DNA from: Eubacteriales bacterium | Lineage (GTDB): Bacteria > Bacillota > Clostridia > Oscillospirales > CAG-382 | Length of the DNA: 64,000 nucleotides | Direction: 5' to 3' | NCBI GenBank assembly: GCA_045612545.1 | Contig: JAZKZH010000034.1 | Location: 1,556 to 65,555 of the forward strand | Shown here: piece after piece, positions 16,490 through 59,880 of the stretch | How the letters are laid out: each line of letters starts with the position of its first letter | Numbering within the stretch: the stretch's first letter is position 1 | Notes under the pieces: generated by a model | The model's input: only the letters and a program-made list of their open reading frames with translations | Database searches by the model: none | What the model was told of the DNA's origin: nothing | Program-made: the position numbers and the translations under genes

Positions 16490-16537
16490 ACTATATCTAA
16501 GCATCTAATTACGCCGTAGGTCGGAAGGAGTGTGTGC

Positions 16538-20662: not shown

Positions 20663-20680
20663 GGAGAGTTCAACGCTTTC

Positions 20681-21445
20681 CGGGAGGTCGAGGCGCCCTC
20701 CCCTACAAACCCGAGCCTTGAAAAACAAAAAAATAAACCTTTTCTCCCGCATAGAAAAAAGTTCATTGCGTGAAAACACGGTTAGATTTTCATTTATACA
20801 TCCTGCGGTTTCGTAGGGGACGGCGCCCTCGACGTCCCGCAAAAATAAAAAGGTGGTCATTTTCTTGACTCTTCCAAAAAGAAAACCAATTCGTTTGAAG
20901 GAATTCAGCTACAGCAACGGCGGATCGTATTTTCTTACACTTTGTGTTCAGGACAGACAAAAGATTTTATCGAAGATAGAGCCGCTTTTTGAATGTAAGT
21001 TTGTTAATGAACTGCCGAGAGACGTTTATCCCTTTGATGGTGATGACAGATACCTACGGGTCATCCCTACGGAGATAGGAAAAATTACGGAGAAATATAT
21101 TTTATCCTCAGAAAAAATACAAGGTGTGATCATTGACGATTACGTGATTATGCCGGATCATGTTCATATTGTTGTTTCTATAACGGATGAGTCGGTTTTA
21201 AAACAAGAGGTAAAAAACGAAAAAATTCCAAAGATCGTTTCCGCATTGAAGCGTTTGATTCAAAAAGAGGTTGGCAGACCGATTTTTCAAAGAGCGTATT
21301 ACGACCACGTGATCCGTAATCACGAGGATTATGAAAATATTTTGGCCTATATTCATCAAAATCCGGCAAGATGGTATTTTCGTCGGTTGAATGGAAAAAT
21401 GAAAGTTGATTGAGATCGGGCGGGAGGTCGAGGAGCCCTCCACCT
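20681..21445 (+). mobile_element. RAYT locus: REP doublet + IS200-like Y1 transposase gene + REP
   Basis: REPs at 20681-20709, 20809-20840 (inverted, ends 12 nt before the ORF) and 21421-21445 (starts 8 nt after the stop). The gene body is AT-rich and the REPs are GC-rich. Confidence 0.75.
20853..21413 (+). CDS. REP-associated tyrosine transposase (IS200-like, HUH/Y1 family)
   Basis: KPIRLKEFSYSNGGSYFLTLCV, HUH motif MPDHVHIVV, and the catalytic-Tyr helix FQRAYYDHVIRNHEDYENILAYIHQNPARW. Confidence 0.8.
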   Translation: MVIFLTLPKRKPIRLKEFSYSNGGSYFLTLCVQDRQKILSKIEPLFECKFVNELPRDVYPFDGDDRYLRVIPTEIGKITEKYILSSEKIQGVIIDDYVIMPDHVHIVVSITDESVLKQEVKNEKIPKIVSALKRLIQKEVGRPIFQRAYYDHVIRNHEDYENILAYIHQNPARWYFRRLNGKMKVD

Positions 21446-21510
21446 GACGTATTCCCTATTTTTCGGAAAATCGTGGGATTTTTGCGGGATTTTCCGTGGA
21501 AAAAAACGGG

Positions 21511-24429: not shown

Positions 24430-24543
24430 TTTGCGTGGAATCTTGCAACGAATTTTCGCTGTACTCCGTGCGGGAACTTGGGTTCGATTCCAATTGATTA
24501 TTGATTTACAGCATAGATCTCATAAAGACAAGGAGAAATTCCA

Positions 24544-45386: not shown

Positions 45387-45472
45387 CATAAGACAGTTCC
45401 TCGAAGTATAGTTTGATGAATTGAATGCGGCCAAAATATCACGGCAACGGCAGAAGCCGTTCTTTTCGGTTT

Positions 45473-45492
45473 CGGGACGCCTCGACCTCCCG
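45473..45492. repeat. solitary REP-like half element
   Basis: CGGGACGCCTCGACCTCCCG, the reverse complement of the CGGGAGGTCGAGGCG.CCC variant that flanks the RAYT gene. Confidence 0.6.
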
Positions 45493-45509
45493 TTTATGCT
45501 CTTTTGCGG

Positions 45510-46838
45510 TCAACCCTTTGCGAAGCGGTCGTGCAATGCCTTTACCTCTTGGGCGAAGGTGCGGATGGAATAGGCGTCGTAGGGAGAAATACCCACGCTG
45601 AAGGTGTCCCGCAGGGGGGCGGAAAGCTCCTCGGGGATGCCTTTTTTGCCCAAGAACGCACCCATAAAGGAGCCTACGGTGGCGCCGTTACAATCGGTGT
45701 CCAGCCCACATTCCACGGCGAAGGCAACCGCCTCCCGGAAATCGTGGTGATAACGGGTGATGGCGGCGATGCAGAAGGCGGCGTTGTTCAGGGTATGCAC
45801 CCAGTTGTAGGTCTTGCTGAAGGCCAACAGCTCCTGCATCAATTCCTTTCGGGAGAGGGAGCTTTTGGCAAGGTCTCTTGCCCACACTGCCGTCTCGTAA
45901 AAGCGGCTCTTCTTCGGCACCACCGCCAAGGCGGTGTCAAAGCAGGCGTCGGGGTCTTTTTCCGTGAAAGCGGCGGCGATCCACGCGGCGAAGAACATTT
46001 CGCCGTAGATGCCGTTCCCCGTATGGGAGAAATAAGCGTCGGTGTGAGCCATGCGGGAAGCAGTGAGGGGATCTCCCGCCGCCCCGTAGGCAAAGGCGTC
46101 ACAGCGGATCTGTGCGCCGATCCATTCTCTGTAGGGGTTGAGGTGGGTGTTGACCTCTGCTTTCCGCAATAAGTCCATTGCGCCCTCCGGCTTGTACCAG
46201 GGGGTGCATTGGTCAATGTTCAAAAAGTTCAAGTATGCTTGACTTTCTGCGGTGCAGACAAAGCGGAAGGGCAGCTTTTTCGACCAGTGATCCCCCACGT
46301 CCCAGGAATCAAAGGAAGCACCCTTTTCCTTCAGAAGCAGGTAATACAGCACGGTGAAACGGGTATCGTCGTCCAAGGGCATTCCGCAGATCTTTTCATC
46401 TGTGGCGGCACCCTCGTTGCGCCGCTGTCCGGAGACGGTGGGCACATAGGAACGGAGGGGGTACTTCCCTGCTTCCTTGTACCATTTTATAATGTCCTCG
46501 GATCTCCAGCCCTCCACGGGCTGACCCCAAGCGCAACCGATGCAACGCCCCAGCCATGCGCCGTGGAAATCGTCTTCGCCAATGTCATCGGGGGACTTTT
46601 GCAGAGTGGAAGCGTTGCTTTGGGCTTCGATCTCGTTCAGCTCCGAGGGTTCTTCGTAGGGGTAGTCCTCCCGCATGGGCAGTGCCTGCAGCTCTGCGTA
46701 AAGCGCCATGAGCTGTTCCTTGCTCTCGGCGGAAGCGATCTTCGCCCGATAGGCTTCTTTGTCGATGGCTCTGCCTTCCTCAAAAAGCTGATCCAGCTCC
46801 TCGGTGAGCAGGGTGGAAAGGGTATTGTATCCTGCCAT
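45510..46838 (-). CDS. ADP-ribosylglycohydrolase family protein (cytoplasmic)
   Basis: GAWLGRCIGCAWGQPVEGW and the C-terminal metal site CGLDTDCNGATVGSFMGAFLG. Confidence 0.75.
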   Translation of the reverse strand: MAGYNTLSTLLTEELDQLFEEGRAIDKEAYRAKIASAESKEQLMALYAELQALPMREDYPYEEPSELNEIEAQSNASTLQKSPDDIGEDDFHGAWLGRCIGCAWGQPVEGWRSEDIIKWYKEAGKYPLRSYVPTVSGQRRNEGAATDEKICGMPLDDDTRFTVLYYLLLKEKGASFDSWDVGDHWSKKLPFRFVCTAESQAYLNFLNIDQCTPWYKPEGAMDLLRKAEVNTHLNPYREWIGAQIRCDAFAYGAAGDPLTASRMAHTDAYFSHTGNGIYGEMFFAAWIAAAFTEKDPDACFDTALAVVPKKSRFYETAVWARDLAKSSLSRKELMQELLAFSKTYNWVHTLNNAAFCIAAITRYHHDFREAVAFAVECGLDTDCNGATVGSFMGAFLGKKGIPEELSAPLRDTFSVGISPYDAYSIRTFAQEVKALHDRFAKG

Positions 46839-46849
46839 AAATAGTCTCC

Positions 46850-48817
46850 TTAATTGGCTTCCGCGCCCATGACGGCCAGCTCGGAGACGGAGATAAAGCC
46901 TGCGTCTCCGCCTGCGATGCCGATGAGGCGAATGCCATCGCAGGTGATTTCTTCAAAAGTAAAGGTGTATACCTCGAACTGAGAGCCAAACACACTCTGG
47001 CTGTTGCCGACCGGGTAAGCGGGAGACGCCGTTGCCTCCACGTCCACCCAAGCACCGTCTTTGAAAGCTTGCAGCTTTAAGGTTCCGTTTGCGAACCAGC
47101 CGCCGTTCACGAAGTGCATTCCCTCGGTGAAAACGATGGTATCGACCTTGCAGGAGGTCTTGAACAGATAGCCTACGTATTCCTCATGGGCGCCGAAATA
47201 GCCGCAGTAGGTGTCGTATTGGTCGGTGTTACCGCCGCCGGTCTTTCCGTCGTTGATCACGTAGATGTCCTTGCTTCCCGAGCCGGTGGGCAGGGAATCA
47301 CTGCAAATGGGGAGCATTACGGGGGCTAAATTGCGGTAGGAGCCTGCGTCGGGGTCGGAGACCGCCGTGGCGTCGGTTATCTTGACCGTTTGGGTCTTGG
47401 TTACAGTATTGCCAAGCACGTCGGAAACGGTACAGGTAATGGTGTAAGTTCCGTTTTTGGAATAGCGGTAGCCCGCCACGTTATCCTTGGCCACAAAGCC
47501 GTCCCCAAAGTCGATGAGGGTGGAGCCAATGCCCGGCACGGAGTAAGCGGAAAGGCTGAGGGTGACTCTGTCCTTCTCTGCGGAGGCGGAGAAGGTCACC
47601 TCGGGGGCTTCCGGCCATTGCTCTGTCGCCACGGGGGTGGTGGGAGCGGTTACCATCTCCCAGCCCTCTTCGGCCCAAGTCAGGCGGGCTTTACAGAGGG
47701 AGAGGGTGGTGTTCACTGCATTTTGCAGGGTATAGTTGGTGTAGGAGAATTTTGCGGTGGTTTTGTCCAGCCCTTTTTTGTATTTTGCGGGAATGCGGTC
47801 AAAGCCCAGCATGGTGCCCAGCACGCCCCCTACCGTGGAGGGGTTGCAGTCGCTGTCCTGCCCGCAACGCATGGCGATGGTCATGGATTTTTCAAAATCC
47901 CCTTCCCCGTAGAGAAGGCCCATCAGCACGTAGGCAGAGTTGATCTTGGCGTCGATGTTTGCCCCGTGGGGATAGTAGCTGACGCATCTGTCGTCGTTCC
48001 CCCATTTGTCCTGAACGGCCTGCCAGGTTTCTTCCCAGGGAAGGCCTTTTTTGTAGCCGTCAAGAACCTCGCTCATCACGGTTTTGTATTCCGTATCCTG
48101 AGGAACGGCCTGCAAAGCCATTTCCACGGCGGTATAGATATCGTCTGTGATGAAGGCCGCCGCCGTCAACGCGGAAACGAACACGCCGCCGTACACACCG
48201 TCGCCGTAACAGATCATATGCCCTATTTCAAAGGAACGGTTTGCCGCCGCCATGGGGTCGCCTCCGTAGATAAGCCCCAGGAAGTCTGCTTCGATCTGCC
48301 AGTCGATATCGTCGCAATGAAGGTTGTTGTCGTAATGCCCGCAAAGGGCGGGAGCGATCCCCTTTTGCAGATTTTCCCGTGCTTGCTTGTTGGCGTGGTC
48401 TAAGCTGTATTCGCTTTTGGCAAAGGCTTCCCCCAAAAGCTCCAGGCTTGCGTTCAGACCGTTGGTCTCCATGACCTCCAAAAAGGTCATTTCCACGTAC
48501 AGATCGTCCTGCCAAAAGGCGTCGTTTACGTTCAAGGAGGCAAAGTCGATGATATCCTTTTCGGGCATTATGGTGCCCCAGTATTGGAACTCCGACTTTG
48601 CGCCATACACAACCCCTGCCATTTGGCCCGCCCAGCCGCCAAGGATCTTATCCTGTATCTGCTCCTCGGTGAAGGAGTAGGTCACAGGCTCCTCGGGAAG
48701 GGAGCTTTCTGCCGAGACCCCCTCGGAGGGGGTGGATTCTGCGGGTGCGGGGACTCCCCCACAGCCTGCAAGCAAAAGACAGATCACCAGCGAAAGAAGG
48801 GTGAGTATTTTTTTCAT
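46850..48817 (-). CDS. secreted lipoprotein: ADP-ribosylglycohydrolase-fold domain + PKD-like domain + C-terminal carbohydrate-binding-like domain
   Basis: Lipobox LLLAGCGG. ARH motifs GGWAGQMAGVVYG and CGQDSDCNPSTVGGVLGTMLG. PKD-like IDFGDG....YRYSKNGTYTITCTVSD. The last 180 aa or so look like a beta-sandwich. Confidence 0.65.
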   Translation of the reverse strand: MKKILTLLSLVICLLLAGCGGVPAPAESTPSEGVSAESSLPEEPVTYSFTEEQIQDKILGGWAGQMAGVVYGAKSEFQYWGTIMPEKDIIDFASLNVNDAFWQDDLYVEMTFLEVMETNGLNASLELLGEAFAKSEYSLDHANKQARENLQKGIAPALCGHYDNNLHCDDIDWQIEADFLGLIYGGDPMAAANRSFEIGHMICYGDGVYGGVFVSALTAAAFITDDIYTAVEMALQAVPQDTEYKTVMSEVLDGYKKGLPWEETWQAVQDKWGNDDRCVSYYPHGANIDAKINSAYVLMGLLYGEGDFEKSMTIAMRCGQDSDCNPSTVGGVLGTMLGFDRIPAKYKKGLDKTTAKFSYTNYTLQNAVNTTLSLCKARLTWAEEGWEMVTAPTTPVATEQWPEAPEVTFSASAEKDRVTLSLSAYSVPGIGSTLIDFGDGFVAKDNVAGYRYSKNGTYTITCTVSDVLGNTVTKTQTVKITDATAVSDPDAGSYRNLAPVMLPICSDSLPTGSGSKDIYVINDGKTGGGNTDQYDTYCGYFGAHEEYVGYLFKTSCKVDTIVFTEGMHFVNGGWFANGTLKLQAFKDGAWVDVEATASPAYPVGNSQSVFGSQFEVYTFTFEEITCDGIRLIGIAGGDAGFISVSELAVMGAEAN

Positions 48818-48832
48818 AAACAGTCTCCTTTT

Positions 48833-49108
48833 TTACGGTTGAAGTTGGTTTTTCCATTTTAACAAGTCCCGCAGGGCCACAAGTCCGTCTCGCTTGCCGA
48901 TGTTGTAAACGCGGCGGATATTTTCCGGGTTCTTTTCCGGCCTGCCGATGCTCAGAGCTTCCCGCGGACGGATGACAAAGGCGTGTCCCTTTTTCTCCTC
49001 CTCACCGATCAAGGCCATGGTTTGGTTGTACCGCTTGTGACAGCCGGCTCGGAGACGGAGAGAAAGCCCGTGTCTCCGCCTGCGGCGCAAAATTTTAACA
49101 ACGGCCAC
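48833..49108 (-). pseudogene. orphan duplicate of the 3' end of the patatin gene fused to a 50-nt duplicate of the 3' end of the ARH lipoprotein gene
   Basis: 48895-49041 matches 49766-49912 (roughly 90 %). 49039-49088 matches 46871-46920 (44/50). The ORF has no N-terminal catalytic domain. Confidence 0.7.
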
Positions 49109-49131
49109 TCCAAACTGTCATGATCGGAATC

Positions 49132-49713
49132 TCATTCGGTAATCGTAAGCAATTCTCCGAATTCCATTAAAACCAGGTCGCAGACCTCTTTCATTTGGGG
49201 AATATCGTCCTTGCTGATCTCATCGTATATGCCCATGACGGCAAAACCGTCTTCTTTTGCCATACGGCAGAACTTTGCCCGATCCTCCACCACAATGCAT
49301 TCTGCGGGGGAAAGGCCGAACCGTTCTGCGGCGGCGTGGTAGATTCTTGTGGATTGGTGCTTGGACACCCCCACGTCGTCACTGCCAAGGTAAAAATCAA
49401 TGAATGCTTCCAGCCCCAGTCGATCCAGCAGACCCTTGGAAAGCTCCTTTGGGGTATCGCTGGCGATGCAGACGGAGATCCCGTGGTCGCGGAGGAGCTT
49501 CAAAAACTCCATGGCGTTTTTCTTGGGGAGGATGGCTTTCTCATATTGCCGGCGGATGTATTCCCGCTTACCCTCCCATCCGCCTTTAAAGGTCTCTGCA
49601 GGAACGATCCAATGGGACATGGAGTCCATCAGAGTGCCGTCCATATCGAAGAGAAAGGCTTTTTTGCCCTTCAGGAATTCATATTTTGAGTCGAAAAGTC
49701 GGTATAGCTTCAT
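49132..49713 (-). CDS. HAD-superfamily hydrolase
   Basis: Motif I FLFDMDGTLMDS. Start ATG 49713 overlaps the patatin stop (ATGA). The ORF-track extension upstream of 49713 overlaps the patatin gene and is not used. Confidence 0.75.
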   Translation of the reverse strand: MKLYRLFDSKYEFLKGKKAFLFDMDGTLMDSMSHWIVPAETFKGGWEGKREYIRRQYEKAILPKKNAMEFLKLLRDHGISVCIASDTPKELSKGLLDRLGLEAFIDFYLGSDDVGVSKHQSTRIYHAAAERFGLSPAECIVVEDRAKFCRMAKEDGFAVMGIYDEISKDDIPQMKEVCDLVLMEFGELLTITE

Positions 49714-50555
49714 GTGACTTCTCTCCATTTCAACATTGTCTCCAACGCTTCTTCCCCATCGGCTCTGCCGATGTTGTAAACGCGGCGGATGTTTTCCGGG
49801 TTCTTTTCCAGCCTGCCGATGATCAGAGCTTCCCGTGGACGGATGACAAAGGCGTTTCCCTTTTTCTCCTCCTCCCCGATCAAGGCCATGGTTTGGTTGT
49901 ACCGCTTGTGACGGTCGGCAAGGGCTTTTGCAAGGCACGGATATTTGCGGTAGAAAAGCTTTGCCAAGAGGGGATGCTCTTTTTTTCGCACATAGCTTGC
50001 GGGATGGGTGAGGATCAGCACGTTGCGGGCGTATCCCATACCCATAAAGGCCTCCAAGGGGATGCTGTCGGTACAGCCCCCGTCCAAATAATGTTCCCCG
50101 CTGATCTCCACGGGCTTGGAAAGATATGGTAAGGATGCGGAGGCGCGGAGCATATCGATCTGTTCCTTCATATCCGTGATGCGCAAGTATTCCGCTTCCC
50201 CGGTGTTTACGTTGGTTGCGGTGACGTAAAAAGGGGTCTCATTTGCCAAAAAGGCGGCGTGGTCGTATATATCCAGCTTATCCGGCAGCTCGTGGTAGCA
50301 AAAATCCACTCCCACCACGTTCCCCGTGGTGAAAAAGCTTTTCATGCCCATAAATCGTGGGTCTTTGCAGTATTTTTCGTAGTAGCGGATGCTTCTCCCC
50401 TTTTGCCCCGAAAGATAGGAACAGCCGTGGATCGCCCCTGCGGACACGCCGATCACCCCGTCAAAGGTCACCCCGTGTTCCATAAACACGTCCAATACCC
50501 CGGCGGTGTAAATGCCCCGCATTCCCCCGCCTTCCAAAATCAAGCCTGTTTTCAT
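49710..50555 (-). CDS. patatin-like phospholipase
   Basis: ILEGGGMRGIYTAGVLD (oxyanion GGG.RG) and GVSAGAIHG (G.S.G nucleophile). Confidence 0.85.
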   Translation of the reverse strand: MKTGLILEGGGMRGIYTAGVLDVFMEHGVTFDGVIGVSAGAIHGCSYLSGQKGRSIRYYEKYCKDPRFMGMKSFFTTGNVVGVDFCYHELPDKLDIYDHAAFLANETPFYVTATNVNTGEAEYLRITDMKEQIDMLRASASLPYLSKPVEISGEHYLDGGCTDSIPLEAFMGMGYARNVLILTHPASYVRKKEHPLLAKLFYRKYPCLAKALADRHKRYNQTMALIGEEEKKGNAFVIRPREALIIGRLEKNPENIRRVYNIGRADGEEALETMLKWREVT

Positions 50556-50560
50556 GTGTT

Positions 50561-51262
50561 TTACTTCCCACACGCCTTTATAAAATCCTCAAACAATAAA
50601 TGGTTGTTTTCATCCGTCCCTGCAAGTCTCTCCGGGTGCCATTGGTAGGCGCGGAGATACCCCTTCCCCGGGGCGTACACCGCCTCGATGACGCCGTCGT
50701 CGGAAAGCGCCATTACCTCCAGCCCTGCCGCCAGATCCTTGACGGCTTGGTGGTGAAAGCTGTTGGCGGTCATTTCCTCTGCCCCGATCAGGGTATGTAA
50801 GGGGGTGTTTTCCATGATCTTTACCCCGTGGGAGGGGGAGAACTTGGGCTCTTTTTGTCTGTGGAACAGCTTTACCGGGTATTCCGTGGGGAGATCCTGG
50901 TACAGCGTGCCACCCATGGCAACGTTCAAGATCTGAATGCCGCGGCAGATGGCAAGAATGGGCTTCCCTGCTTTGTAGGCGGAGGCAAAAACGGCCAGCT
51001 CCAGCTCGTCCCGCATCACGTCGGGAGTGCCGCAGGTCTCTTTCATTTCCTCCCCGTAGCGGTTGGGGTGAACGTCTCCCCCGCCGGTGAACACAAAGCC
51101 GTCGCAAAGGGAAACGAACCGTTCGACGGTTTTCTTTTCTTGGGTATAGGGCAGCAGTACGGGGGTGCCACCCGCGTTTTCGATGGATCTTAAGTATGCA
51201 GTCTGGACGATGGTGCTCTTTTCAGCATCCACCTCGCCAAGCATGCCGATGATAGGTGTCAT
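50561..51262 (-). CDS. class-I glutamine amidotransferase-like / gamma-glutamyl-GABA hydrolase family (peptidase C26)
   Basis: PILAICRGIQILNVAMGGTLYQD (nucleophile Cys) and SFHHQAV. Confidence 0.8.
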   Translation of the reverse strand: MTPIIGMLGEVDAEKSTIVQTAYLRSIENAGGTPVLLPYTQEKKTVERFVSLCDGFVFTGGGDVHPNRYGEEMKETCGTPDVMRDELELAVFASAYKAGKPILAICRGIQILNVAMGGTLYQDLPTEYPVKLFHRQKEPKFSPSHGVKIMENTPLHTLIGAEEMTANSFHHQAVKDLAAGLEVMALSDDGVIEAVYAPGKGYLRAYQWHPERLAGTDENNHLLFEDFIKACGK

Positions 51263-51322
51263 AAGGGGGGTTGTCCTTTCGGTGGGATATGCGTAGCGTT
51301 TTCATCCTTCTCGCTTCAGGAC

Positions 51323-51676
51323 GTCATCCTTGAGCTCAGGTTTGCAAGCAAACCGTCGAAGTTTTGCGGAAGTAGTCGTCGCAACGCGACGAGGGATGGA
51401 GCAAAACCGCCGCAGGCGGGATCTCATAAGAGTCTGATGTTCCTTTCTGTAACGAGAGAACTGTTTTATCACAAAGGATGTAAGTTTACTTTTCAAGGGG
51501 TAGATCAGACTTTGAGGAGACCCCTTGCGGTTTTGCTTTTTAGAAATTGCTGTGGAAGACAGAACCACTTCCAAGATTTCGGGGCAATTTCAAAAAGCAA
51601 AACTTCGACTCCGCAGGCTTTTCTCATTGCAACCTAAGGTACAACATTATTCCGCGCCTGCTTCGCTCAGGGTGAC
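51323..51676. repeat. nested-palindrome composite element, copy E7a (354 bp, core inverted; mirror image of E1)
   Basis: GTCATCCTTGAG at 51323, core at 51418-51524, the same TTGCAACCTAAGGTACAACATTATTCC insert as E1/E3b, CTCAGGGTGAC ending at 51676. Confidence 0.8.
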
Positions 51677-51755
51677 CAAGTCGGCGTTCAGCCTTTGGCT
51701 TATGCGTAGGTTTGCCTCGCCGACGTCAAAAACAGCTAAGGCTGTTTTTGTTGGG
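51674..51755. repeat. module-C copy
   Basis: GACCAAGTCGGCGTTCAGCCTTTGGCTTATGCGTAGGTTTGCCTCGCCGACGTCAAAAACAGCTAAGGCTGTTTTTG. Confidence 0.7.
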
Positions 51756-51878
51756 TTTTGTTCCATCCCGCGCGACCAACCCGCAGGGTTGGTATGCGTA
51801 GGATGTCATCTTTATGTGGGGTTGGATGTTTATGTAACTTTGTTACGTAACTTTGTAAGGAATAAAGCCTTCCTCATC

Positions 51879-51955
51879 CCAAGTCGGCGCAGGGCTTTTG
51901 TCTTATGCGTAGTTTTGTTTCGCCGACGTCAAAAACGGCAAGCCGTTTTTGGAAC
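51879..51955. repeat. module-C copy
   Basis: CCAAGTCGGCGCAGGGCTTTTGTCTTATGCGTAGTTTTGTTTCGCCGACGTCAAAAACGGCAAGCCGTTTTTGG. Confidence 0.7.
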
Positions 51956-51969
51956 TGTAACGGCTACGT

Positions 51970-52286
51970 GTCATCCTGAGCACGCGCGGGTCGTAGTAGA
52001 TGTGGCTACGCATTACAGTCATCTCCGCGCACGTCGAAGTTTTGCGTAGGTGAGCGTAGCGAACGAAGCAAAACCGCCGCAGGGGGGATCTACTGAGAGT
52101 CTGATATACCTTTTTGGGGGGTAAAGAACTGTTTTATCACAAAAAATGTAAGTTTACCTATGTAGGGGTAGATCAAATTCGTAGGAGATCCCTTCGGGGT
52201 GCAAGCACCCCTTGATTTTCTCCGTTCGGCCATGCCTCGACTACGAAAATTTCGACGGCTTGCTTGCAAGCCTACTCAGAGATGAC
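51970..52286. repeat. nested-palindrome composite element, copy E7b (317 bp, core inverted)
   Basis: GTCATCCTGAG at 51970, core at 52085-52192, right arm ATTTTC/GAAAAT (same variant as the left arm of E3), CTCAGAGATGAC ending at 52286. Confidence 0.8.
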
Positions 52287-52420
52287 AGTGTAATGGTTAC
52301 GGTTGCGGTATGCATAGCGTATGATGAGGTTCCTCTTGCCTGCTTGGCGGCGCCGCGCATTCGAGCGTTGCCCCTTTAGGTAGGGAGTCTACTAATGTGT
52401 TTGATATGTTAGGGTATTAC

Positions 52421-54078: not shown

Positions 54079-54921
54079 TTATACCGTATATGTAGAATAA
54101 TTAAGCAATTTCTCAAAATAAGTGTAGGGGACGTGTTCCTTCCCCAGGGGAATATCCGGCTTCCGCGAGCCGTGGAAGTCGCTCCCGCCGGAGGGGAGCA
54201 GGTTGTACTTTTCGCAAATTGGGCGCACAAACTCCGCTTCTTCCTTGCTGTGTGCAGGGTGAAGCACCTCAACGGCCGCAAGACCGGCTTCCACAGCCAA
54301 GGGCAAGAATTCCTTCAGCTCTTCCCTGCTCAGATCCAGCAAGGGGTGCGCCAGCACGGGCACAGCACCAATGGACTTTAAAAAGGCGATGGCCTCCAAC
54401 GAAGGAATTCTTTTCACGGGAACGTAGTAGGGGCTTTCCTTGGCCAGCAGGGTGGCAAAGGCCTCTTTCACCGAGGAAACGTAGCCCTTTTCCGTCAGCT
54501 TTGCACCGATATGGGAGCGGTTGAACCTGCCCTTGGGGGTGAGACTTGCCACCTCTTCGAAGGTGATGTCATACCCGTCCTTTTGCAGGCGGGAAATCAG
54601 CTCGCGGTTGCTTTCCGCTTTCTTGTTTAGCAGTGCTTCCGTGTAGGCTTGTACCTCGGAGAGCCTTTCCTCAGGCAGGAACAGCCCCACAATGTGAAGC
54701 TCTGTTTCCCCGTAGTCGGTGGATAACTCCACCCCGGGGACGGTGCGGACAGAGCTTGTCTTCCCTGCTTGCAAAAAGGCGGGAAGTCCCTCTGCGGTGT
54801 TATGATCGCAGAGAGCAACGGCGGAAAGGCCGATACGCTCCGCTTCTTTTATGATCTCTTCGGGAGTGAAGGTTCCGTCGGAGAAAATTGAATGGGTGTG
54901 AAGATCACAGTAGGTTGACAT
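54079..54921 (-). CDS. PHP-domain metal-dependent phosphoesterase (TrpH/YciV-like)
   Basis: The N-terminus YCDLHTHSIFSDG is present, along with later His/Asp ligands (CDHNT, VLAHP, GGSDFHG). Confidence 0.8.
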   Translation of the reverse strand: MSTYCDLHTHSIFSDGTFTPEEIIKEAERIGLSAVALCDHNTAEGLPAFLQAGKTSSVRTVPGVELSTDYGETELHIVGLFLPEERLSEVQAYTEALLNKKAESNRELISRLQKDGYDITFEEVASLTPKGRFNRSHIGAKLTEKGYVSSVKEAFATLLAKESPYYVPVKRIPSLEAIAFLKSIGAVPVLAHPLLDLSREELKEFLPLAVEAGLAAVEVLHPAHSKEEAEFVRPICEKYNLLPSGGSDFHGSRKPDIPLGKEHVPYTYFEKLLNYSTYTV

Positions 54922-55236
54922 AATTCGTTTTTGTTGAGTGTGGATTTTTTGGGCCGCCGTGGACGTCGGCCCCTACGGACCCGAAATGGGGACGGCAGAA
55001 AGTACGGCATTTTCTCCCGCAAGCATTACGGTGAGAAAACGATTTGCGCCCATCTGATTACGTGGGAACACGGTACGATTTTGTGGACGATCTATGCGTA
55101 TTCGTAGGGGACGACGTCCACGGCGTCCCGCTTGAAAATCTAAGTATACTTAGGCTTTTTGTGAAAAATGCTCAAAATCCTCTGCCCGGCGGATCTTTAA
55201 TGCGGCAAGCAATTGTTTCGCGCGGACTCGTTTCAC

Positions 55237-55315
55237 GTGAAACATTTTCACGTGAAACGTTTTCACAGTGAAACATTTTCACAGTGAAACGTTTTCACAG
55301 TGAAACATTTTCTGC
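55237..55315. repeat. array 1: five tandem copies of GTGAAACRTTTTCAC(A)
   Basis: Copies start at 55237, 55252, 55268, 55284 and 55300. Position 8 alternates A,G,A,G,A. The array is preceded by the perfect palindrome GTTTCACGTGAAAC. Confidence 0.9.
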
Positions 55316-55676
55316 GTGATATAAACTCGGCGACGATCCTTGGACCACCCGTTTTTATTGCTCTTACTTCTTCGTTAAGTGGATTTTACGGGCCGCCGTG
55401 GGCGTCGGCCCCTACGGACCCGAAATGGGATTGTGGGAACCACGGCATTTTCTCCCGCAAGCATTACGGCGAGAAAACCGATTTGCGCCCATCTGATTAC
55501 GTGGGAACACGGTGCGATTTTGTGGACGCTATATGCGTATTCGTAGGGGACGACGTCCACGGCGGCCCGCTTGAAAATCTAAGTATACTTAAGCTTTTTT
55601 GTGAAAAATGCTCAAAATCCTCTGCCCCGCGGATCTTTAATGCGGCAAGCAATTGTTTCGCGCGGACTTGTTTCAC

Positions 55677-55752
55677 GTGAAACATTTTCACGTGAAACAT
55701 TTTCACAGTGAAACATTTTCACAGTGAAACATTTTCTTGTGAAACATTTTCG
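55677..55752. repeat. array 2: five tandem copies of GTGAAACATTTTCAC(A)
   Basis: Copies start at 55677, 55692, 55708, 55724 and 55739. The array is preceded by GTTTCACGTGAAAC. Confidence 0.9.
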
Positions 55753-55770
55753 TTTGGCTTGAGAAAATAT

Positions 55771-56020
55771 GAACCTCATCCGTCGCTCGACAAGTCTCGC
55801 GCCACCTTCCCCAAAGGGGAAGGCTAGGCTCCCTTCGGGAGCGGGCAATGGTTTGCTATAATTCATCGCCGAGACTTAAGGCACGAACGATTGAAATCAT
55901 TTGTGCGCACGCCATCGGCGTGCCTCGCCTTCCCCACCCGGGGAAGGGGGACCACAACGAGACGGAATGTGCGGCGTCTGTTCGCTTGGTTCTCTCTCGT
56001 AGTGGTGGATGAGGTTCCTA
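55771..56020. repeat. inverted GAACCTCATCC repeats enclosing GC hairpins (module F pair)
   Basis: GAACCTCATCC at 55771 and GGATGAGGTTC near 56010. Internal hairpins: CCTTCCCCAAAGGGGAAGG, GGCTCCCTTCGGGAGC, GCACGCCATCGGCGTGC, CCTTCCCCACCCGGGGAAGG. Related copies lie at 24183-24240, 31269-31288 and 52321-52340. Confidence 0.65.
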
Positions 56021-56070
56021 TCAAAAAAATTGAATTTTGTCCTACCTCAATCGCCTGTTTTCGTTGGATT

Positions 56071-57420
56071 TTACTTCTTCGTCAGACACACAACGGTTTC
56101 CACGTGCCCTGTTCTCGGGAACATATTATAGGGGGTTGCTTCCCCTATTTCGTAAGTATAGCTCAGTTTTTCACAATTTGCTGCTAAGGTTGCGGGGTTG
56201 CAGGAGATATAAACAATGCGTTTTGGGGCGATCTCCAGCAAGGTTTCGATGACCTCGTCGGAAAGGCCTTTTCTGGGTGGGTCAACCACAATTACATCGG
56301 GGTCGCCGAAGGCCTTTTTGCAGGCATCTACCCCCAAAGAAGCATCTCCGCAGACGAAAAGGGTGTCCTCTTCCCTTCTGCCGCCCAATTTTGCGTTGAT
56401 TTTGGCGTTTTCAATGGCTTCGGGAACGATTTCCACACCGCAAAGCTTTTGATTTTCCTTTACCATGGAAAGCCCGATGGTGCCGGCACCGCAGTATAGA
56501 TCCAGAAGAACGCCGTTTTCCGGAAGATCTGCCAGCTCAGCGGCTTTTTGATACAATGCCTCGGTGCATTCCGGGTTGACCTGATAAAACGCTGTTGGCG
56601 AGATCTGGAAGATTTTACCGCAGAGAGTATCTTGCAAAACCGATTCTCCTGCTAAATGCAGGGTTTCTTCGCCAAAAATCACGTTGTCACCCTTGGGATT
56701 TACGTTCAGTGCCACACCAACGACCTGAGGAAAGGTTTCTATCAGCTCTTCTGCCAATGCTTTTGCTTTGGAAAACGCCTTGGAGGCGGTGAAGCACACG
56801 AAAAACTCGCCTTTGCGGTTCTTACGCATGGCGATATGGCGGAGAATGCCCTTGCCGTTCTGCTCGTTCCACACGGGAATATGATGTTTCTCGGATTGTT
56901 TCACGTGAAACATTGCGATCTCTGAAAACTGATCCTCCTGCAGAGGGCATTTCTCATGCTCAACAATAGAATGGGTGTGTCGAGCATAGTATCCAAAGGT
57001 AGTATTTCCGTCCTTGTTGCGCCCAAGGGGGTAAACGACCTTATTGCGGTAATTTTCCATGGAAAAGGATACCGTATCCGCCACGGCAACGTCCAAGTGC
57101 CCGATTCTCTTGAAAGCGTTTTCCACTGTTTGCTTTTTGATCTGCAATTCTGCGGCAGGGGAGAGATGGCGGTAGACACAACCGCCGCATCGGTGGTAAA
57201 CGGGGCAATCCGCCTCTATACGCAGGGAAGAAGTGGAGACAAGCTCCTCCAGCCGCCCAACATAGTAATTCTTTGCGCATTTGATGATTTTTACAGTGGC
57301 AACGTCCCCGGGCGCTGTGAGAGGAACGAATACCACCTCGCCGGTTTCGGCACGTCCAACGCCGTTGCCATCGGGGTTGATATCGGTGATGGATAGAGTA
57401 ATGAGGTCATTTTTGTTCAT
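56071..57420 (-). CDS. rlmD: 23S rRNA (uracil-5-)-methyltransferase RlmD/RumA type (TRAM + Fe-S + SAM MTase)
   Basis: TRAM domain (ITDINPDGNGVGR...VFVPLTAPGDVATVKI), Cys cluster C...CGGC, LLDLYCGAGTIGL and RIVYISCNPATLA. Confidence 0.85.
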   Translation of the reverse strand: MNKNDLITLSITDINPDGNGVGRAETGEVVFVPLTAPGDVATVKIIKCAKNYYVGRLEELVSTSSLRIEADCPVYHRCGGCVYRHLSPAAELQIKKQTVENAFKRIGHLDVAVADTVSFSMENYRNKVVYPLGRNKDGNTTFGYYARHTHSIVEHEKCPLQEDQFSEIAMFHVKQSEKHHIPVWNEQNGKGILRHIAMRKNRKGEFFVCFTASKAFSKAKALAEELIETFPQVVGVALNVNPKGDNVIFGEETLHLAGESVLQDTLCGKIFQISPTAFYQVNPECTEALYQKAAELADLPENGVLLDLYCGAGTIGLSMVKENQKLCGVEIVPEAIENAKINAKLGGRREEDTLFVCGDASLGVDACKKAFGDPDVIVVDPPRKGLSDEVIETLLEIAPKRIVYISCNPATLAANCEKLSYTYEIGEATPYNMFPRTGHVETVVCLTKK

Positions 57421-58513
57421 TGGCGGGTTCCTCTTGGGTTACGATGGTTTCCGCAGCTTCTTCAGAGGGGAGAACATCTGTTTGGTTCGGGGATTCCTCC
57501 TCATTTCCTGCGGCAGGGGAGGGGATGGGTTCTTGATCGTCAAAAACAATGTCTCTTTTGCGCAGGCGGTAGTAGTCTGCCTGCTTGGTCAGTGCCTCCA
57601 AAAGAGGGGTCAGCAAGCCGCAGCAAAGCACGGCGTACAGCACACCGTCCATGCCCAGATAGTAGCGGAATAGGAAGGTCGCCACCGCCGCCAAAATACC
57701 GAAGAGCAGCTTGCCGCCCTTGGTTCTGGGGGTGATGGAAAGATCGTTCAGGGTGAGAGTCGCGCCCAGGGCTACACCGCCGCAAAGGAGATACATATAG
57801 CCGTATTCCACCATTTCCGTCTCCGCAGGGGAGAAGGCCATGGCAAGGGTTAACAGCGTGAGCAGGTAAGCGGTGGTGATATGCCATGTGGCCACCTTGC
57901 GGTAAAGCAGCCAGCCAAGGCCGAACAGCAGGCAGGCGATACCCACGGCACCCATGGCACCGGAGGCAAAGCCGTAGAATTGGGCAAAGGCACCATCCCC
58001 GTACATGGTGCCTCCCATAAGCACGTCAAAAGGGGTCTTCACTTGATAAGCGGAGACCAATTCGGGGTTTATTACCCATTCGAATGGGGAAAAGTAGGCA
58101 AATGGCTTGGTAAAGCGTGTCATTTCATATGGGTACATAAGTCCTAACGCCGCCGCCGCCAAAGCGGAGGGACATAGGATTCTGTGGCCGAACCACACGT
58201 ATAGCGCCCTTGCCACCGCTATGAAGCCGGAGGCGATCATAGGGTAGTAGAGAGGCACGGTGACGGGGAACCAAAGAGCTGCCAGCACACCGGTGAGGAA
58301 GGCAAAGGGGGAGCAGGATTCGCTCCAGCTTCTGCGCAGGATCAGCTTTTGAATGAGGAAATCCAGCACAAAGGAGCAACCGCCGCAGATCCCCGCCAGC
58401 ACAGCAGCGCGGCCGCCGTACAGAAACACTGCCCAAGCGGTGACGGGAAGCATGGCGATGAACAGATCAAACGCTAAGGCGTTTTTTGTTTTGGGAGAGG
58501 AAACGAACTTCAT
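57407..58513 (-). CDS. RnfD/NqrB-family membrane protein
   Basis: MKFVSSPKTKN... (compare the SSPH N-terminus of RnfD) and about 9 hydrophobic segments. The Glu/Pro-rich C-terminal tail overlaps the rlmD start by 14 nt. The ORF-track N-terminal extension is not used. Confidence 0.6.
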   Translation of the reverse strand: MKFVSSPKTKNALAFDLFIAMLPVTAWAVFLYGGRAAVLAGICGGCSFVLDFLIQKLILRRSWSESCSPFAFLTGVLAALWFPVTVPLYYPMIASGFIAVARALYVWFGHRILCPSALAAAALGLMYPYEMTRFTKPFAYFSPFEWVINPELVSAYQVKTPFDVLMGGTMYGDGAFAQFYGFASGAMGAVGIACLLFGLGWLLYRKVATWHITTAYLLTLLTLAMAFSPAETEMVEYGYMYLLCGGVALGATLTLNDLSITPRTKGGKLLFGILAAVATFLFRYYLGMDGVLYAVLCCGLLTPLLEALTKQADYYRLRKRDIVFDDQEPIPSPAAGNEEESPNQTDVLPSEEAAETIVTQEEPANEQK

Positions 58514-58535
58514 AAGAACAAATCCTTTCTGCCCG

Positions 58536-59774
58536 TTACTTGAGATTTTTGTGCCGCGCGATCTTCTCCCGCAGGGGAATGGCGGCAGGGCAGACGTATT
58601 CACAGCATCCGCAGCCGATGCAAACGGCGGCGAGGCGCTTTGCGGAAAGATAGCTTCTCTGGGTGAGGCTCTTGTAGGGCATAAGGCGCATGGGACAGCT
58701 TTCCGCACACCGTCCGCAGGAAATGCAGTGGGTGGAACCAACGTCCAAAGGCATGGAGGCAAATACTGCCTCGGCCTTGCCGTGGATAGCGCCCTCTGCC
58801 TGAGGGCCGCCCAAGGGAGAATTGACCATGGTGCGGTAAGCGCCGCCCTTGAATTCCGCCGCCTCCAACACCGTTTTCCAGGGGGTGCCTATGGGTAGGT
58901 CGATGACAGCATTTTTGCCGAAGCCCTCGCCGCAGGCGGTTACCGTGCGGGTGAGCTGGGGGAGGCCCGTGAGAAGGGAAACATACAGCTGTGCCAGGGT
59001 CTGTCCCTTTACAAACAGCACTCCTTCGGATTCGGCGGTGGTATCTTTTTTCAGATGGCGGACGTAAAGCGCCTCGTAGAGGGTTTCGTCCCGCATGGGG
59101 TATTTCACTTGAAATTCCGCCTGTACCAGCAGGGCGGGATCGTTGATCATGGTGGTGAAGGCTTCCTTCACCTTGGCTTTTTCCTTGTCAATGATCAAAA
59201 TGGTCTTGGAAGCTCCCAGCAGGTGCATCAAAACCTTGGCGCCGCCCAGAATTTCTCCCGGATGGCGGAGGGCGCTGCGGTATTCCGTAAAGGACCAGCC
59301 GGAATCATCGGTGGTATCCACCACCACACGGCGGATCTTGCCCACCAAGGGGGTGAGTCTGCGCCACAGCCAGTCACCGCTCCAAAGATCGTGGATGCCC
59401 AGGGTCTTGATAGAGCTTAAAAGCTCCTCCGAGGTCAGCTCCTCCAACCGTTTGCTTTCCGGCTCGCGGGCGGGGACGGGGGAGAGGTCTGCATCCTTTT
59501 TGTTGCGCTCCACGGAAAGGTAGTGCAAGCCGTTTTTTTCGAACACGCCGGTGACCACGCCGGGGATGGAGCTGTAAATGGGGGTGCCGTCGGCCAGCAG
59601 AGCCACTCTGCCACCCACGGGGATCTCCTCGTTTTCGCACACCGTGATGGTATATGCCTCCTCTGCGTCTCCCAAGGGCAACATGACCTGAGAAACGTTC
59701 TTCAGAATAAGGCTGTTTTTCAAAGCGTCGGTTCGAACGGGGAGGGAAACACCGCCCGTGAATGTCAAGACCAT
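58536..59774 (-). CDS. RnfC-like protein with two 4Fe-4S ferredoxin motifs
   Basis: The N-terminus FTGGVSLP resembles the RnfC barrel-sandwich domain. C-terminal CISCGRCAESCP and CIGCGCCEYVCP. The nucleotide-binding region looks degenerate (VVVDTTDDSGWSFTEYR where RnfC has GAECEPY). Confidence 0.6.
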   Translation of the reverse strand: MVLTFTGGVSLPVRTDALKNSLILKNVSQVMLPLGDAEEAYTITVCENEEIPVGGRVALLADGTPIYSSIPGVVTGVFEKNGLHYLSVERNKKDADLSPVPAREPESKRLEELTSEELLSSIKTLGIHDLWSGDWLWRRLTPLVGKIRRVVVDTTDDSGWSFTEYRSALRHPGEILGGAKVLMHLLGASKTILIIDKEKAKVKEAFTTMINDPALLVQAEFQVKYPMRDETLYEALYVRHLKKDTTAESEGVLFVKGQTLAQLYVSLLTGLPQLTRTVTACGEGFGKNAVIDLPIGTPWKTVLEAAEFKGGAYRTMVNSPLGGPQAEGAIHGKAEAVFASMPLDVGSTHCISCGRCAESCPMRLMPYKSLTQRSYLSAKRLAAVCIGCGCCEYVCPAAIPLREKIARHKNLK

Positions 59775-59880
59775 AAGCTCCTCCGAAAATACATACATGA
59801 ATTCATTATGATTATACCACAAAACGGAAAGATTTCAATAAGAAAATGTAAATAAAACCTTGTTCTGCAGGGGAAAACAC

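What the first reader, a model, noticed from the sequence alone, without database searches (positions are those of the whole stretch)
54922..56070. 1.15-kb spacer between the PHP gene and rlmD consists of two tandem 439-bp units plus an inverted-repeat hairpin cassette
Seen: unit 1 starts at about 54941 and unit 2 at about 55380. All landmarks are offset by exactly 439 nt. Each unit contains, in order:
- TGGATTTT;
- a REP;
- about 120 nt with the hairpin TTTTCTC-CCGCAAGCATTACGG-GAGAAAA;
- an inverted REP;
- about 105 nt (CTTGAAAATCTAAGTATACTTA...GGATCTTTAATGCGGCAAGCAATTGTTTCGCGCGGAC);
- a 16-bp repeat array.

The end of unit 1 also contains TTACTTCTTCGT (55363-55374), which is identical to the last codons plus stop of rlmD at 56071-56082. 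TGGATTTT recurs just before that stop (56063). The first REP lies only 30 nt upstream of the PHP start codon, which has no obvious RBS.

Inference: this is a recent tandem duplication seeded at the rlmD 3' end, generating a large structured block in what is probably one transcription unit (RnfC-like, RnfD-like, rlmD, PHP, methyltransferase).
Basis: seen in the sequence. Interest (0 to 1): 0.65.

Follow-up and report, generated by a model that had tools for sequence, protein, structure and literature searches.

The report
Repeat-and-relic mosaic between two genes
The 1.15-kb gap between an rRNA-methyltransferase gene and a PHP phosphoesterase gene of an uncultured ruminant-gut Clostridia bacterium is a real but fairly ordinary patchwork of small hairpin repeats (REP doublets), a length-variable short-repeat array, a second hairpin mini-element and the leftover tail of a lost gene, and it is not a fresh duplication with a special function.

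Summary
Two 375-nt copies (54940-55314 and 55379-55753, 93% identical, offset 438-440) lie in the rlmD-PHP gap, separated by 64 nt that carry an orphan copy of the rlmD tail. A 255-bp inverted-repeat element lies next to rlmD.

Ten related metagenome loci show what the parts are:
- **"REP - 125 nt - inverted REP":** a GTAG-footed REP doublet (REPIN-like). A homologous doublet flanks a RAYT-like transposase gene in the same window.
- **The "105 nt":** the last 13 codons plus 3' flank of a 215-aa gene (ORF3). This gene is intact at this position in relatives.
- **The 16-bp array:** an expanded palindrome, GTTTCACGTGAAAC. Its length varies between strains.

The scaffold REP doublet - rlmD-tail copy - ORF3 - REP doublet - PHP exists in five other genomes, so the duplication is old rather than recent. 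The middle segment (55309-55591) is about 96% identical to genomes whose PHP gene is only 71-76% identical. The closest relative by genes has a 272-nt gap, so the spacer is a recombining mosaic.

Two points remain unexplained. The palindrome is also the longest invariant stretch inside rlmD. The 255-bp element occurs in both orientations among strains.

I rate it a new member of a known kind, of low to moderate interest.

The parts
54922..54950 (-). 29-nt leader between REP doublet a and the PHP start codon (ATG at 54921-54919). It has no Shine-Dalgarno sequence. The start context ACGAATTATGTCAACCTA is conserved in relatives.
54951..55130 (.). REP doublet a (REPIN-like). REP 54951-54977, 125-nt spacer, inverted REP 55103-55130. 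Each REP is an imperfect palindrome with a GTAG/CTAC foot.
   Evidence: (I5)
55131..55230 (-). Relic of a 215-aa gene (ORF3 of relatives). The last 13 codons (about 55212-55174, LLAALKIRRAEDF) have lost the stop codon through a 1-nt deletion. The gene's 3' flank follows, with the palindrome CTAAGTATACTTAG (55140-55153).
55231..55314 (.). Array 1: 5.2 copies of a 16-bp self-complementary unit (TTTCAC-N1-2-GTGAAA-CAT).
55315..55388 (-). 'spacer64': an orphan copy of the rlmD tail (55364-55375 plus CTT) and of its decayed downstream hairpin. In relatives this is the 5' flank of intact ORF3.
   Evidence: (D9)
55389..55569 (.). REP doublet b. It is 95-96% identical to the doublet at the same relative position in L009, L022, L024 and L026.
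   Evidence: (I3)
55570..55670 (-). Second copy of the ORF3 relic (codons about 55652-55614) plus 3' flank. It has the same 1-nt stop-loss deletion as copy 1.
55671..55753 (.). Array 2: 5.3 copies of the 15-16-bp unit. It is shorter by 15, 47 or about 61 nt (a 78-nt gap with 17 other letters in between) in contigs of other samples.
55767..56021 (.). 255-bp hairpin-rich element bounded by 15-nt inverted ends (ATAtGAACCTCATCC / GGATGAGGTTCCTAT). It is absent from the ten related loci, present with other flanks elsewhere, and found in both orientations at this site among strains.
   Evidence: (I14)
56022..56070 (-). 49-nt 3' flank of rlmD, paralogous to the first part of spacer64.
56894..56916 (-). 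GCAATGTTTCACGTGAAACAATC inside rlmD (codons AMFHVKQS). It contains the same 14-bp palindrome as the arrays and is the longest invariant run in the five-genome rlmD alignment.
20677..21446 (+). RAYT-like Y1 transposase gene (20853-21413). A homologous REP doublet lies upstream (20677-20846) and a REP-like hairpin lies downstream. This is the likely cognate enzyme of the REP family.

Best explanation
The rlmD-PHP spacer is a recombination-prone accessory slot that has decayed in this genome.

**Ancestral state.** In relatives, the slot holds one to three small genes. Each is preceded by the palindrome GTTTCACGTGAAAC and followed by a conserved AAGTATACTTAG motif plus a GTAG-footed REP hairpin or a REP doublet.

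**Origin of the 439-nt unit.** Each unit in this genome is the deletion remnant of one such cassette. It consists of:
- the leader palindrome, expanded by slippage into a 15/16-bp array;
- the last 13 codons of the 215-aa gene ORF3, fused to the array by a deletion between AATTG/ACTTG microhomologies;
- that gene's 3' flank;
- a REP doublet of the family served by the RAYT-like transposase encoded 34 kb away.

**Origin of the scaffold.** The scaffold 'REP doublet - orphan rlmD tail - cassette - REP doublet - PHP' is old. It came from an ancient duplication whose left end lay in the last codons of rlmD. It is shared with at least five other genomes.

**Changes in this lineage.** The deleted cassette now occupies both positions. 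This is inferred to be copying by unequal recombination or gene conversion, because both relics share a derived 1-nt stop-loss and an extra degenerate repeat. A 255-bp hairpin mini-element was also inserted next to rlmD.

**Function (inferred, not shown).** The block is most likely not selected as a unit. It probably acts only as a long, highly structured, terminator-less leader through which PHP is transcribed from upstream. The REP doublets would act as RNA-stabilising or attenuating hairpins, as REPs do in enterobacteria.
For: **Anatomy**
- Two copies at 93% identity, the arrays and the inverted repeats are all present.

**Relatives carry genes in this gap**
- L009 ORF1 (158 aa), ORF2 (about 170 aa) and ORF3 (215 aa).
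- ORF3 is a real family with 29 homologues at 33-100% identity.
- ORF3 is intact in L003, L004, L009, L022, L024, L025 and L026. It is also intact in the strain of run X28, which reads rlmD - 255-bp element - array - ORF3 - 3' flank - REP doublet - PHP.

**Relic**
- The window's 'LLAALKIRGAEDF' aligns with the ORF3 C-terminus 'LLAVLATHGAEDF*' and its 3' flank.
- The same array/relic fusion is present in L004 and L001.
- Both window copies share the stop-loss deletion.

**REP identity**
- The REPs have a GTAG foot plus an imperfect palindrome, with at least 11 copies in 64 kb.
- A RAYT-like gene is present: Pfam Y1_Tnp 29.9 bits (cut-off 23) and NCBIfam REP_Tyr_transpos E=1.7e-19.
- The doublet flanking that gene aligns with the finding's doublets, including blocks of the spacer.

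**Age and mosaicism**
- Doublet b is 95.6% identical to L009 but 92.2% to doublet a. The a/b patch is shared with L004.
- Segment 55309-55591 is 95-96% identical to L009, L022, L024 and L026, whose PHP is 71-76% and rlmD 88-90% identical.
- L021, with rlmD 94.5% and PHP 93-96% identical, has a 272-nt gap with one palindrome and one 73%-identical doublet.
- L019 and L020 (PHP 93% aa) have a nitroreductase gene 9 nt upstream of PHP instead of the spacer.

**Array length polymorphism**
- The array is shorter by 15 nt (X17), 47 nt (X12) and about 61 nt (X29: a 78-nt gap with 17 other letters between).

**Transcription**
- No minus-strand terminator was predicted in the gap.
Against: - Genome-wide copy numbers of the doublet, the array and the 255-bp element could not be counted.
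- The sample of origin was not among the served runs; the best word share was 0.17-0.21. The junction 55314/55315 has no independent support, so a strain-chimeric assembly is not excluded.
- The very high conservation of the non-coding segment 55309-55591 (about 96%) relative to neighbouring genes could mean function rather than recent exchange.
- The palindrome is invariant inside rlmD at seven synonymous positions in five genomes. This suggests a selected cis-element that a 'junk' reading does not explain.
- The RAYT-like protein scores below NCBIfam's equivalog cut-off (70.2 against 80).
- No transcription data of usable quality exist.
Confidence: 0.72

Rival explanations
1. One reading: this is a recent tandem duplication in this genome. 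Its left breakpoint lay in the last codons of rlmD, and it created both units at once.
For: - The units lie head to tail and are 93-97% identical outside one patch.
- An orphan rlmD tail sits at the junction.
- Both ORF3 relics share derived changes.
Against: - The junction (REP doublet + rlmD-tail copy) is 95-99% identical in five other genomes, where it precedes an intact gene.
- Doublet b is closer to L009 than to doublet a, and the a/b patch is trans-specific.
- The strain of run X28 carries the 255-bp element with a single, intact cassette.
Confidence: 0.08
2. The block is a functional regulatory device. The palindrome arrays are multimerised binding sites for an unknown dimeric regulator, or RNA hairpins. 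They act together with the conserved copy inside rlmD to control rlmD and PHP or to titrate the regulator. The REP doublet plus spacer64 could be a conserved leader or small RNA.
For: - The 23-nt stretch containing the palindrome is the longest invariant run in rlmD. The next longest is 15 nt, and third-codon-position invariance overall is 0.40.
- A copy lies just after rlmD or before the first small gene in L001-L004, L009, L021, L024 and L026.
- Segment 55309-55591 is more conserved than the flanking genes.
- Both structures fold far better than shuffles.
Against: - No regulator gene lies nearby.
- Array length varies freely between strains, and the closest relative has a single palindrome.
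- There is no Rfam match.
- Promoter-like hits are not above the shuffled expectation.
- Good folding is expected of any inverted-repeat element.
Confidence: 0.13
3. The two-unit order is an assembly chimera. It would have arisen in a metagenome-assembled genome by joining strains or species through shared REP or array repeats.
For: - The flanking genes are L021-like, whereas the middle is like L009, L024 and L026.
- No independent contig crosses 55314/55315.
- The relatives are all MAGs.
Against: - The other junctions are each seen independently:
  - PHP with doublet a (X1);
  - rlmD with the 255-bp element (X23, X24, X28);
  - the element with a short array and the relic (X12, X29);
  - 3' flank with doublet b and spacer64 (five loci).
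- The shared repeats are shorter than typical final assembly k-mers.
- The spacer64/array junction reads as a natural degenerate repeat.
Confidence: 0.07

Closest known systems
REP / BIME / REPIN elements with their RAYT (TnpA-REP) transposase (E. coli, Pseudomonas; PMC3116915, PMC5581495, PMC6006769)
   Same: - A GT[AG]G tetranucleotide sits at the foot of an imperfect palindrome.
- Copies are dispersed and extragenic.
- Inverted doublets form long hairpins.
- A Y1 HUH transposase gene is flanked by the same repeat family.
- REP clusters are mixed with other motifs in gene gaps, as in BIMEs.
   Different: - The host is an uncultured ruminant-gut Clostridia lineage. RAYT Group 1 is reported in Clostridia (PMC5581495), but REP doublets there are little described.
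- The spacer between the two REPs is long (125 nt).
- The doublet here is conserved at one locus across species.
- Mobility of this doublet was not shown.
Modular intergenic repeats of Gram-positives (the pneumococcal BOX family and similar; cited from general knowledge and from earlier scan note e1-2275285)
   Same: The 255-bp element is built from hairpin-rich modules with a shared end motif (GGAACCTCATCC). Solo modules occur elsewhere in the window (24183, 31271, 52322), and many copies occur in gut metagenomes.
   Different: There is no sequence relationship to BOX. No associated enzyme was identified here. The element is seen in both orientations at one site.
Variable-number tandem repeats (minisatellites) produced by slipped-strand mispairing
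   Same: There are 15-16-bp head-to-tail units, and the number of units differs between closely related strains.
   Different: The unit is self-complementary in every register. It derives from a palindrome that is also conserved within a coding region.
Invertible DNA switches (invertons) of gut bacteria
   Same: A short segment bounded by inverted repeats is found in both orientations in natural populations.
   Different: No invertase gene lies nearby. The two orientations were not seen within one sample. No promoter was shown inside. The element also exists at other loci, like a dispersed repeat.

Membership tests
REP / REPIN (RAYT-associated) | GT[AG]G tetranucleotide at the foot of an imperfect palindrome (definition in PMC6006769) | tested here: met
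   The four REPs at the finding read CGTAGGGG(A/C)CGACG(T/C)CCACGGCG(T/G)CCCG or its reverse complement.
REP / REPIN (RAYT-associated) | Many dispersed extragenic copies in the genome | tested here: inconclusive
   At least 11 REP-type hairpins lie in the 64-kb window, at about 12.5, 20.7, 20.8, 21.4, 24.3, 24.4 kb plus four at the finding. The REP bins in gut metagenomes have very high summed contig depth.
REP / REPIN (RAYT-associated) | Two REPs in inverted orientation forming a hairpin doublet | tested here: met
   Arms are 27-28 nt, 93% complementary and 125 nt apart (I3 and I5). The fold gives -99.5 kcal/mol, z = -7.9.
REP / REPIN (RAYT-associated) | A cognate RAYT gene flanked by the same REP family | tested here: met
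   Window 20853-21413 scores Y1_Tnp 29.9 bits (cut-off 23) and REP_Tyr_transpos 70.2 bits, E=1.7e-19 (below the cut-off of 80). It has an HVH motif and YYDHVIR. Its upstream doublet aligns with the finding's doublets.
REP / REPIN (RAYT-associated) | Evidence of transposition (near-identical doublets at unrelated loci) | not testable with these tools
   Within the window, the other doublets (20677-20846 and 24286-24436) are homologous but diverged.
Recent tandem duplication | Adjacent head-to-tail copies that are near-identical and absent from close relatives | tested here: not met
   The copies are 93% identical. The junction and both doublet types are present in other species.
Pseudogene relic | Homology to part of a gene that is intact at the same position in relatives, with a disrupted frame | tested here: met
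   The alignment of both relics with ORF3 3' ends shows the stop codon lost through a 1-nt deletion. ORF3 is intact in relatives.
VNTR / minisatellite | Tandem short units whose copy number differs between strains | tested here: met
   TRF finds period 15-16 with 5.2-5.3 copies. Contigs from other samples have arrays shorter by 15, 47 and about 61 nt (X29: a 78-nt gap with 17 other letters between). Relatives have 1-3 units.
Inverton (invertible switch) | Both orientations of an IR-bounded segment at one locus | tested here: inconclusive
   One 332-nt contig of X17 joins 55766 to 56021 in inverted orientation. X12, X23, X24, X28 and X29 show the window's orientation. The two orientations were never seen within one run, and the evidence comes from contigs only.
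Inverton (invertible switch) | A site-specific recombinase encoded nearby | tested here: not met
   No recombinase was found among the 43 window ORFs scanned with Pfam. The six ORFs at 43803-51262 were not scanned.
Known RNA families (Rfam 15) | A match at or near the gathering score | tested here: not met
   The only hit was a spurious plant miRNA at E=0.38. Nothing was found in four related loci.

The most novel reading that the evidence does not exclude
The 14-bp palindrome GTTTCACGTGAAAC may be a lineage-specific cis-element, either a protein operator or an RNA/DNA hairpin. It would be kept both inside rlmD, where it is invariant at synonymous sites, and just downstream of rlmD. Its multimerisation into strain-variable arrays would tune expression of the downstream genes. 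Together with a 255-bp element that flips between strains, this would form a compound phase- or copy-number-variable control region. In addition, the REP-doublet-flanked ORF3 cassette (doublet - spacer64 - ORF3 - doublet) may be exchanged between species as a unit.
Probability: 0.15. Interest if true: 0.55.

Novelty: new member of a known kind. Interest (0 to 1): 0.3.

Why it matters
The finding is a well-resolved example of how a bacterial intergenic region is built. Several processes act together: REP/RAYT-type repeats, slippage arrays, microhomology deletions, and cassette exchange between related species. Together they can turn a 272-nt gap into 1.15-2.8 kb of structured DNA.

It documents REP doublets and their RAYT-like gene in uncultured ruminant-gut Clostridia, a group where such systems are barely described.

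It also warns annotators that 'tandem repeats' in such gaps can be gene relics.

The only parts that could matter beyond this are the palindrome conserved at synonymous sites in rlmD and the orientation polymorphism of the 255-bp element. Both are cheap to test.

Tried and rejected
- **Rfam:** the permissive threshold on the region and the gathering threshold on four related loci found nothing real.
- **tRNA scan:** only one unrelated tRNA-Ala was found. The repeated matches at 51.3-52.3 kb are therefore not tRNA genes.
- **Metagenome contigs:** the pattern scan for spacer64 gave 0 hits. The PHP-based locus search found only relatives at 48% identity or less.
- **Exact-protein look-ups:** the window's PHP and rlmD proteins are not on record.
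- **Sequencing runs:** no run holds more than 0.21 of the words. Copy number in the source organism and transcription could therefore not be tested. No contig crosses 55314/55315.
- **Small proteins on the plus strand:** I considered ORFs 55044-55271 and 55300-55680 and rejected them. They differ in length and frame between the two copies.
- **Known operator consensus sequences (from memory only):** I compared the array unit with these and found that none fits:
  - Rex, TGTGAA-N4-TTCACA: the spacing is off by one.
  - CRP/FNR: the spacing is off by one.
  - LacI/cre type: one base short.
  - CodY: the centre is too long.
  - PadR, ATGT-N8-ACAT: the array has N10.
- **Sigma-70-like promoter hits in the units:** they are not above the shuffled expectation.
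- **Microhomology at TAAAATCCA as the duplication breakpoint:** rejected, because the orphan copy starts upstream of the stop codon.
Full report
**1. What is in the sequence**

The gap between the PHP gene (54079-54921) and the rlmD-like gene (56071-57420), both on the minus strand, is 1149 nt.
- The repeat finder and a pairwise alignment show two copies of a 375-nt sequence, 54940-55314 and 55379-55753.
- They are 93% identical, with start-to-start offsets of 438-440 nt.
- Each copy contains a REP, a 125-nt spacer, an inverted REP, about 100 nt, and an array of 5.2-5.3 units of 15-16 bp.
- The copies are separated by 64 nt (55315-55378). This stretch includes TTACTTCTTCGT (55364-55375), identical to the last codons plus stop of rlmD (D9).
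- Between unit 2 and rlmD lies a 255-bp segment, 55767-56021, with 15-nt inverted ends (I14).

**2. Organism and comparators**

- A protein-guided scan of one-genome-per-species contigs returned uncultured Clostridia MAGs from yak, sheep, buffalo and other guts.
- Exact-protein look-ups of homologues added L019-L026.

**3. The gap is hypervariable and normally holds genes**

In rlmD-to-PHP orientation the gap lengths are:

| Locus | Gap |
|---|---|
| L021 (closest by genes: rlmD 94.5%, PHP 93-96% nt) | 272 nt |
| Window | 1.15 kb |
| L002 | 1.26 kb |
| L003 | 1.44 kb |
| L009 | 2.2 kb |
| L004 | 2.8 kb |

- In L019 and L020 (PHP 93% aa), a nitroreductase gene sits 9 nt upstream of PHP and rlmD is absent. 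The gap is therefore also a synteny breakpoint.
- L009 carries three ORFs in the gap: two paralogous proteins of about 160 aa and a 215-aa protein, ORF3.
- ORF3 has 29 homologues at 33-100% identity and no Pfam or NCBIfam domain.
- Each small gene is followed by TTTC-AAGTATACTTAG-ATTTTCAA and then a GTAG/CTAC-footed hairpin.
- The first gene after rlmD is preceded by one to three copies of GTTTCACGTGAAAC.

**4. What the '105 nt' and the arrays are**

- Aligned with ORF3 3' ends of L009, L003 and L004, the window's 100-nt segment encodes LLAALKIRGAEDF. The relatives read LLAVLATHGAEDF*.
- This is followed by the same 3' flank. A 1-nt deletion removes the stop codon in both window copies.
- On its other side the relic is fused directly to the leader palindrome, reading GTGAAACAATTG|CTTGCC. 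In L003 the leader reads GTGAAACAATTG|ATCG...RBS-ATG, and the gene has GA(A/C)TTG|CTTGCC near its end. This indicates a deletion between short homologies.
- The same fusion is present in L004 and L001.
- The arrays are the leader palindrome multiplied. Contigs from other samples carry the same flanks with arrays shorter by 15, 47 and about 61 nt (X29: a 78-nt gap with 17 other letters between).
- The strain in run X28 reads rlmD - 255-bp element - short array - RBS - intact ORF3 - 3' flank - REP doublet - PHP. That is one undeleted unit.

**5. The REP parts**

- Each REP is an imperfect palindrome with a GTAG foot (CGTAGGGGACGACGTCCACGGCGTCCCG). This is the definition used for canonical REPs (PMC6006769).
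- Scanning the window's ORFs against Pfam found a 186-aa Y1 transposase at 20853-21413, between recF and gyrB.
- NCBIfam's REP-associated tyrosine transposase model matches it at E=1.7e-19, scoring 70.2 bits against an equivalog cut-off of 80. The HUH motif (HVH) and YYDHVIR are present.
- The 170 nt upstream of that gene form a REP doublet. It aligns with the finding's doublets in the REPs and in blocks of the spacer: ACCCGA, TTTTCTCCCGCA, CGTG..AACACGGT..GATTTT and TGCG..TTCGTAGGGG.
- An earlier scan note on the same gene reached the same reading. I found the gene independently.
- RAYT Group 1 is reported from Clostridia (PMC5581495), so this is a known kind of system in a little-studied host.

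**6. Age of the duplication**

- The 64-74-nt stretch with the orphan rlmD tail aligns over 36 of 48 nt with rlmD tail plus downstream hairpin of L003. It aligns over about 29 nt with the window's own rlmD tail. A duplication that began in the last codons of rlmD did therefore happen.
- However, this stretch, together with the preceding 3' flank and doublet b (55309-55591), is 95-96% identical in L009, L022, L024 and L026. The spacer alone is up to 98.6% identical. In those loci it is followed by intact ORF3 and, in L024-L026, by a second doublet and PHP.
- Doublet b is 95.6% identical to L009's doublet but only 92.2% to doublet a. The 20-nt patch that distinguishes a from b is shared with the two doublets of L004.
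- The two-doublet scaffold is therefore ancestral.
- What is specific to this genome is that the deleted cassette sits at both positions. Both relics share the stop-loss and an extra degenerate repeat, GTCCGCGCGAAACAA. The insertion of the 255-bp element is also lineage-specific.

**7. Mosaicism**

- The genomes that share the 96%-identical middle segment have PHP genes only 71-76% identical and rlmD genes 88-90% identical to the window's.
- L021 has the most similar genes, yet its doublet is only 73% identical and it has no orphan tail.
- Two explanations are possible. The middle of the spacer may have been exchanged between species by recombination; I prefer this because the region is so plastic. 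Alternatively it may be under strong constraint. An assembly chimera is a third possibility that I could not exclude for one junction.

**8. The 255-bp element**

- It is absent from the related loci.
- It folds strongly.
- Solo copies of its end motif occur elsewhere in the window.
- An almost complete copy occurs with different flanks in run X26. It therefore belongs to a dispersed family.
- At this locus, contigs from X12, X23, X24, X28 and X29 show the window's orientation. One 332-nt contig from the metatranscriptome X17 joins 55766 to 56021 in the inverted orientation.
- The arms are only about 15 nt long. This favours a site-specific or replication-based flip over RecA-mediated recombination, but a single contig is thin evidence.

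**9. The palindrome inside rlmD**

- GTTTCACGTGAAAC occurs in the window only in the arrays and once inside rlmD, at 56898-56911.
- In the five-genome rlmD alignment, the 23-nt stretch around it is the longest invariant run. The next longest is 15 nt. It spans seven third-codon positions, whereas only 40% of third positions are invariant overall.
- An earlier first-stage note flagged the 19-nt match.
- This is the one feature that a pure 'debris' reading does not explain. I found no nearby regulator gene and no fit to the operator consensus sequences I could recall.

**10. How it works**

Shown:
- The block is built from a gene relic, a length-variable array, REP doublets with a candidate cognate transposase, and a dispersed hairpin element.
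- It varies greatly between close relatives.

Inferred:
- It is not selected as a unit.
- PHP, whose start has no Shine-Dalgarno sequence in any relative, is probably transcribed through it. No minus-strand terminator is predicted.
- The doublets would act as stable RNA hairpins.
- Transcription could not be tested. The runs found hold only fragments from related strains.

**11. Verdict**

- Observation: confirmed.
The duplication with an rlmD tail is real, but it is not recent and not a purpose-built block.
- Novelty: new member of a known kind.
- Interest: about 0.3. The palindrome and the flipping element are the only leads worth a bench test.

Noticed in passing
window 20677-21446: A RAYT-like Y1 transposase gene (186 aa, HVH and YYDHVIR motifs) lies between recF and gyrB. 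It has a REP doublet upstream and a REP-like hairpin downstream. The window also holds dnaA (16532-17863), dnaN, recF, gyrB and gyrA, so it covers the replication-origin region.
   Followed up: partly
window 56894-56916: The 23-nt stretch GCAATGTTTCACGTGAAACAATC inside rlmD is invariant in five genomes, including seven synonymous positions. It contains the palindrome that makes up the arrays.
   Followed up: partly
window 55309-55591 compared with L009, L022, L024, L026: A non-coding segment (3' flank + REP doublet b + orphan rlmD tail) is about 96% identical between genomes whose adjacent PHP genes are only 71-76% identical. This means either cassette exchange between species or strong constraint.
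   Followed up: partly
L019 3977-5343; L020 3790-5156: In two contigs whose PHP protein is 93% identical to the window's, a nitroreductase gene ends 9 nt before PHP, and an ECF sigma factor cluster lies upstream. rlmD and the spacer are absent, so the spacer marks a synteny breakpoint.
   Followed up: no
window 54919-54950 and relatives: The PHP start (ATGTCAACCTA, MSTYCDLH) has no Shine-Dalgarno sequence in the window or in any relative. In L009 a TTGAAT-17-TATATT promoter-like pair ends about 9 nt before the ATG, which hints at a leaderless or near-leaderless mRNA there.
   Followed up: no
window 51263-52420: This is a 1.16-kb repeat field. Its pieces match, at 77-100%, sequences that lie upstream of the RnfC-like gene in L001, L003 and L004, on the other side of the operon. 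It is another family of dispersed or rearranged repeats, and not tRNA genes.
   Followed up: no
L009 498-974 and about 1075-1587; L024 218-547; L026 1657-1986: Relatives carry paralogous small predicted membrane proteins (109-170 aa, no Pfam match) in the same gap. Each is followed by the AAGTATACTTAG motif.
   Followed up: no
window 24183, 31271, 52322: Solo copies of the GGAACCTCATCC end motif of the 255-bp element sit next to GC-rich hairpins. Earlier scan notes also report orphan gene 3' tails elsewhere in this genome (plsY, a metallophosphoesterase, patatin and ARH at 48833-49108). Reiterated gene tails in repeat-filled spacers therefore seem to be a recurrent feature of this genome.
   Followed up: no
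window 57407-59822: An RnfC-like and RnfD-like gene pair lies upstream and overlaps rlmD by 14 nt. No other rnf genes are seen in the 10 kb examined.
   Followed up: no
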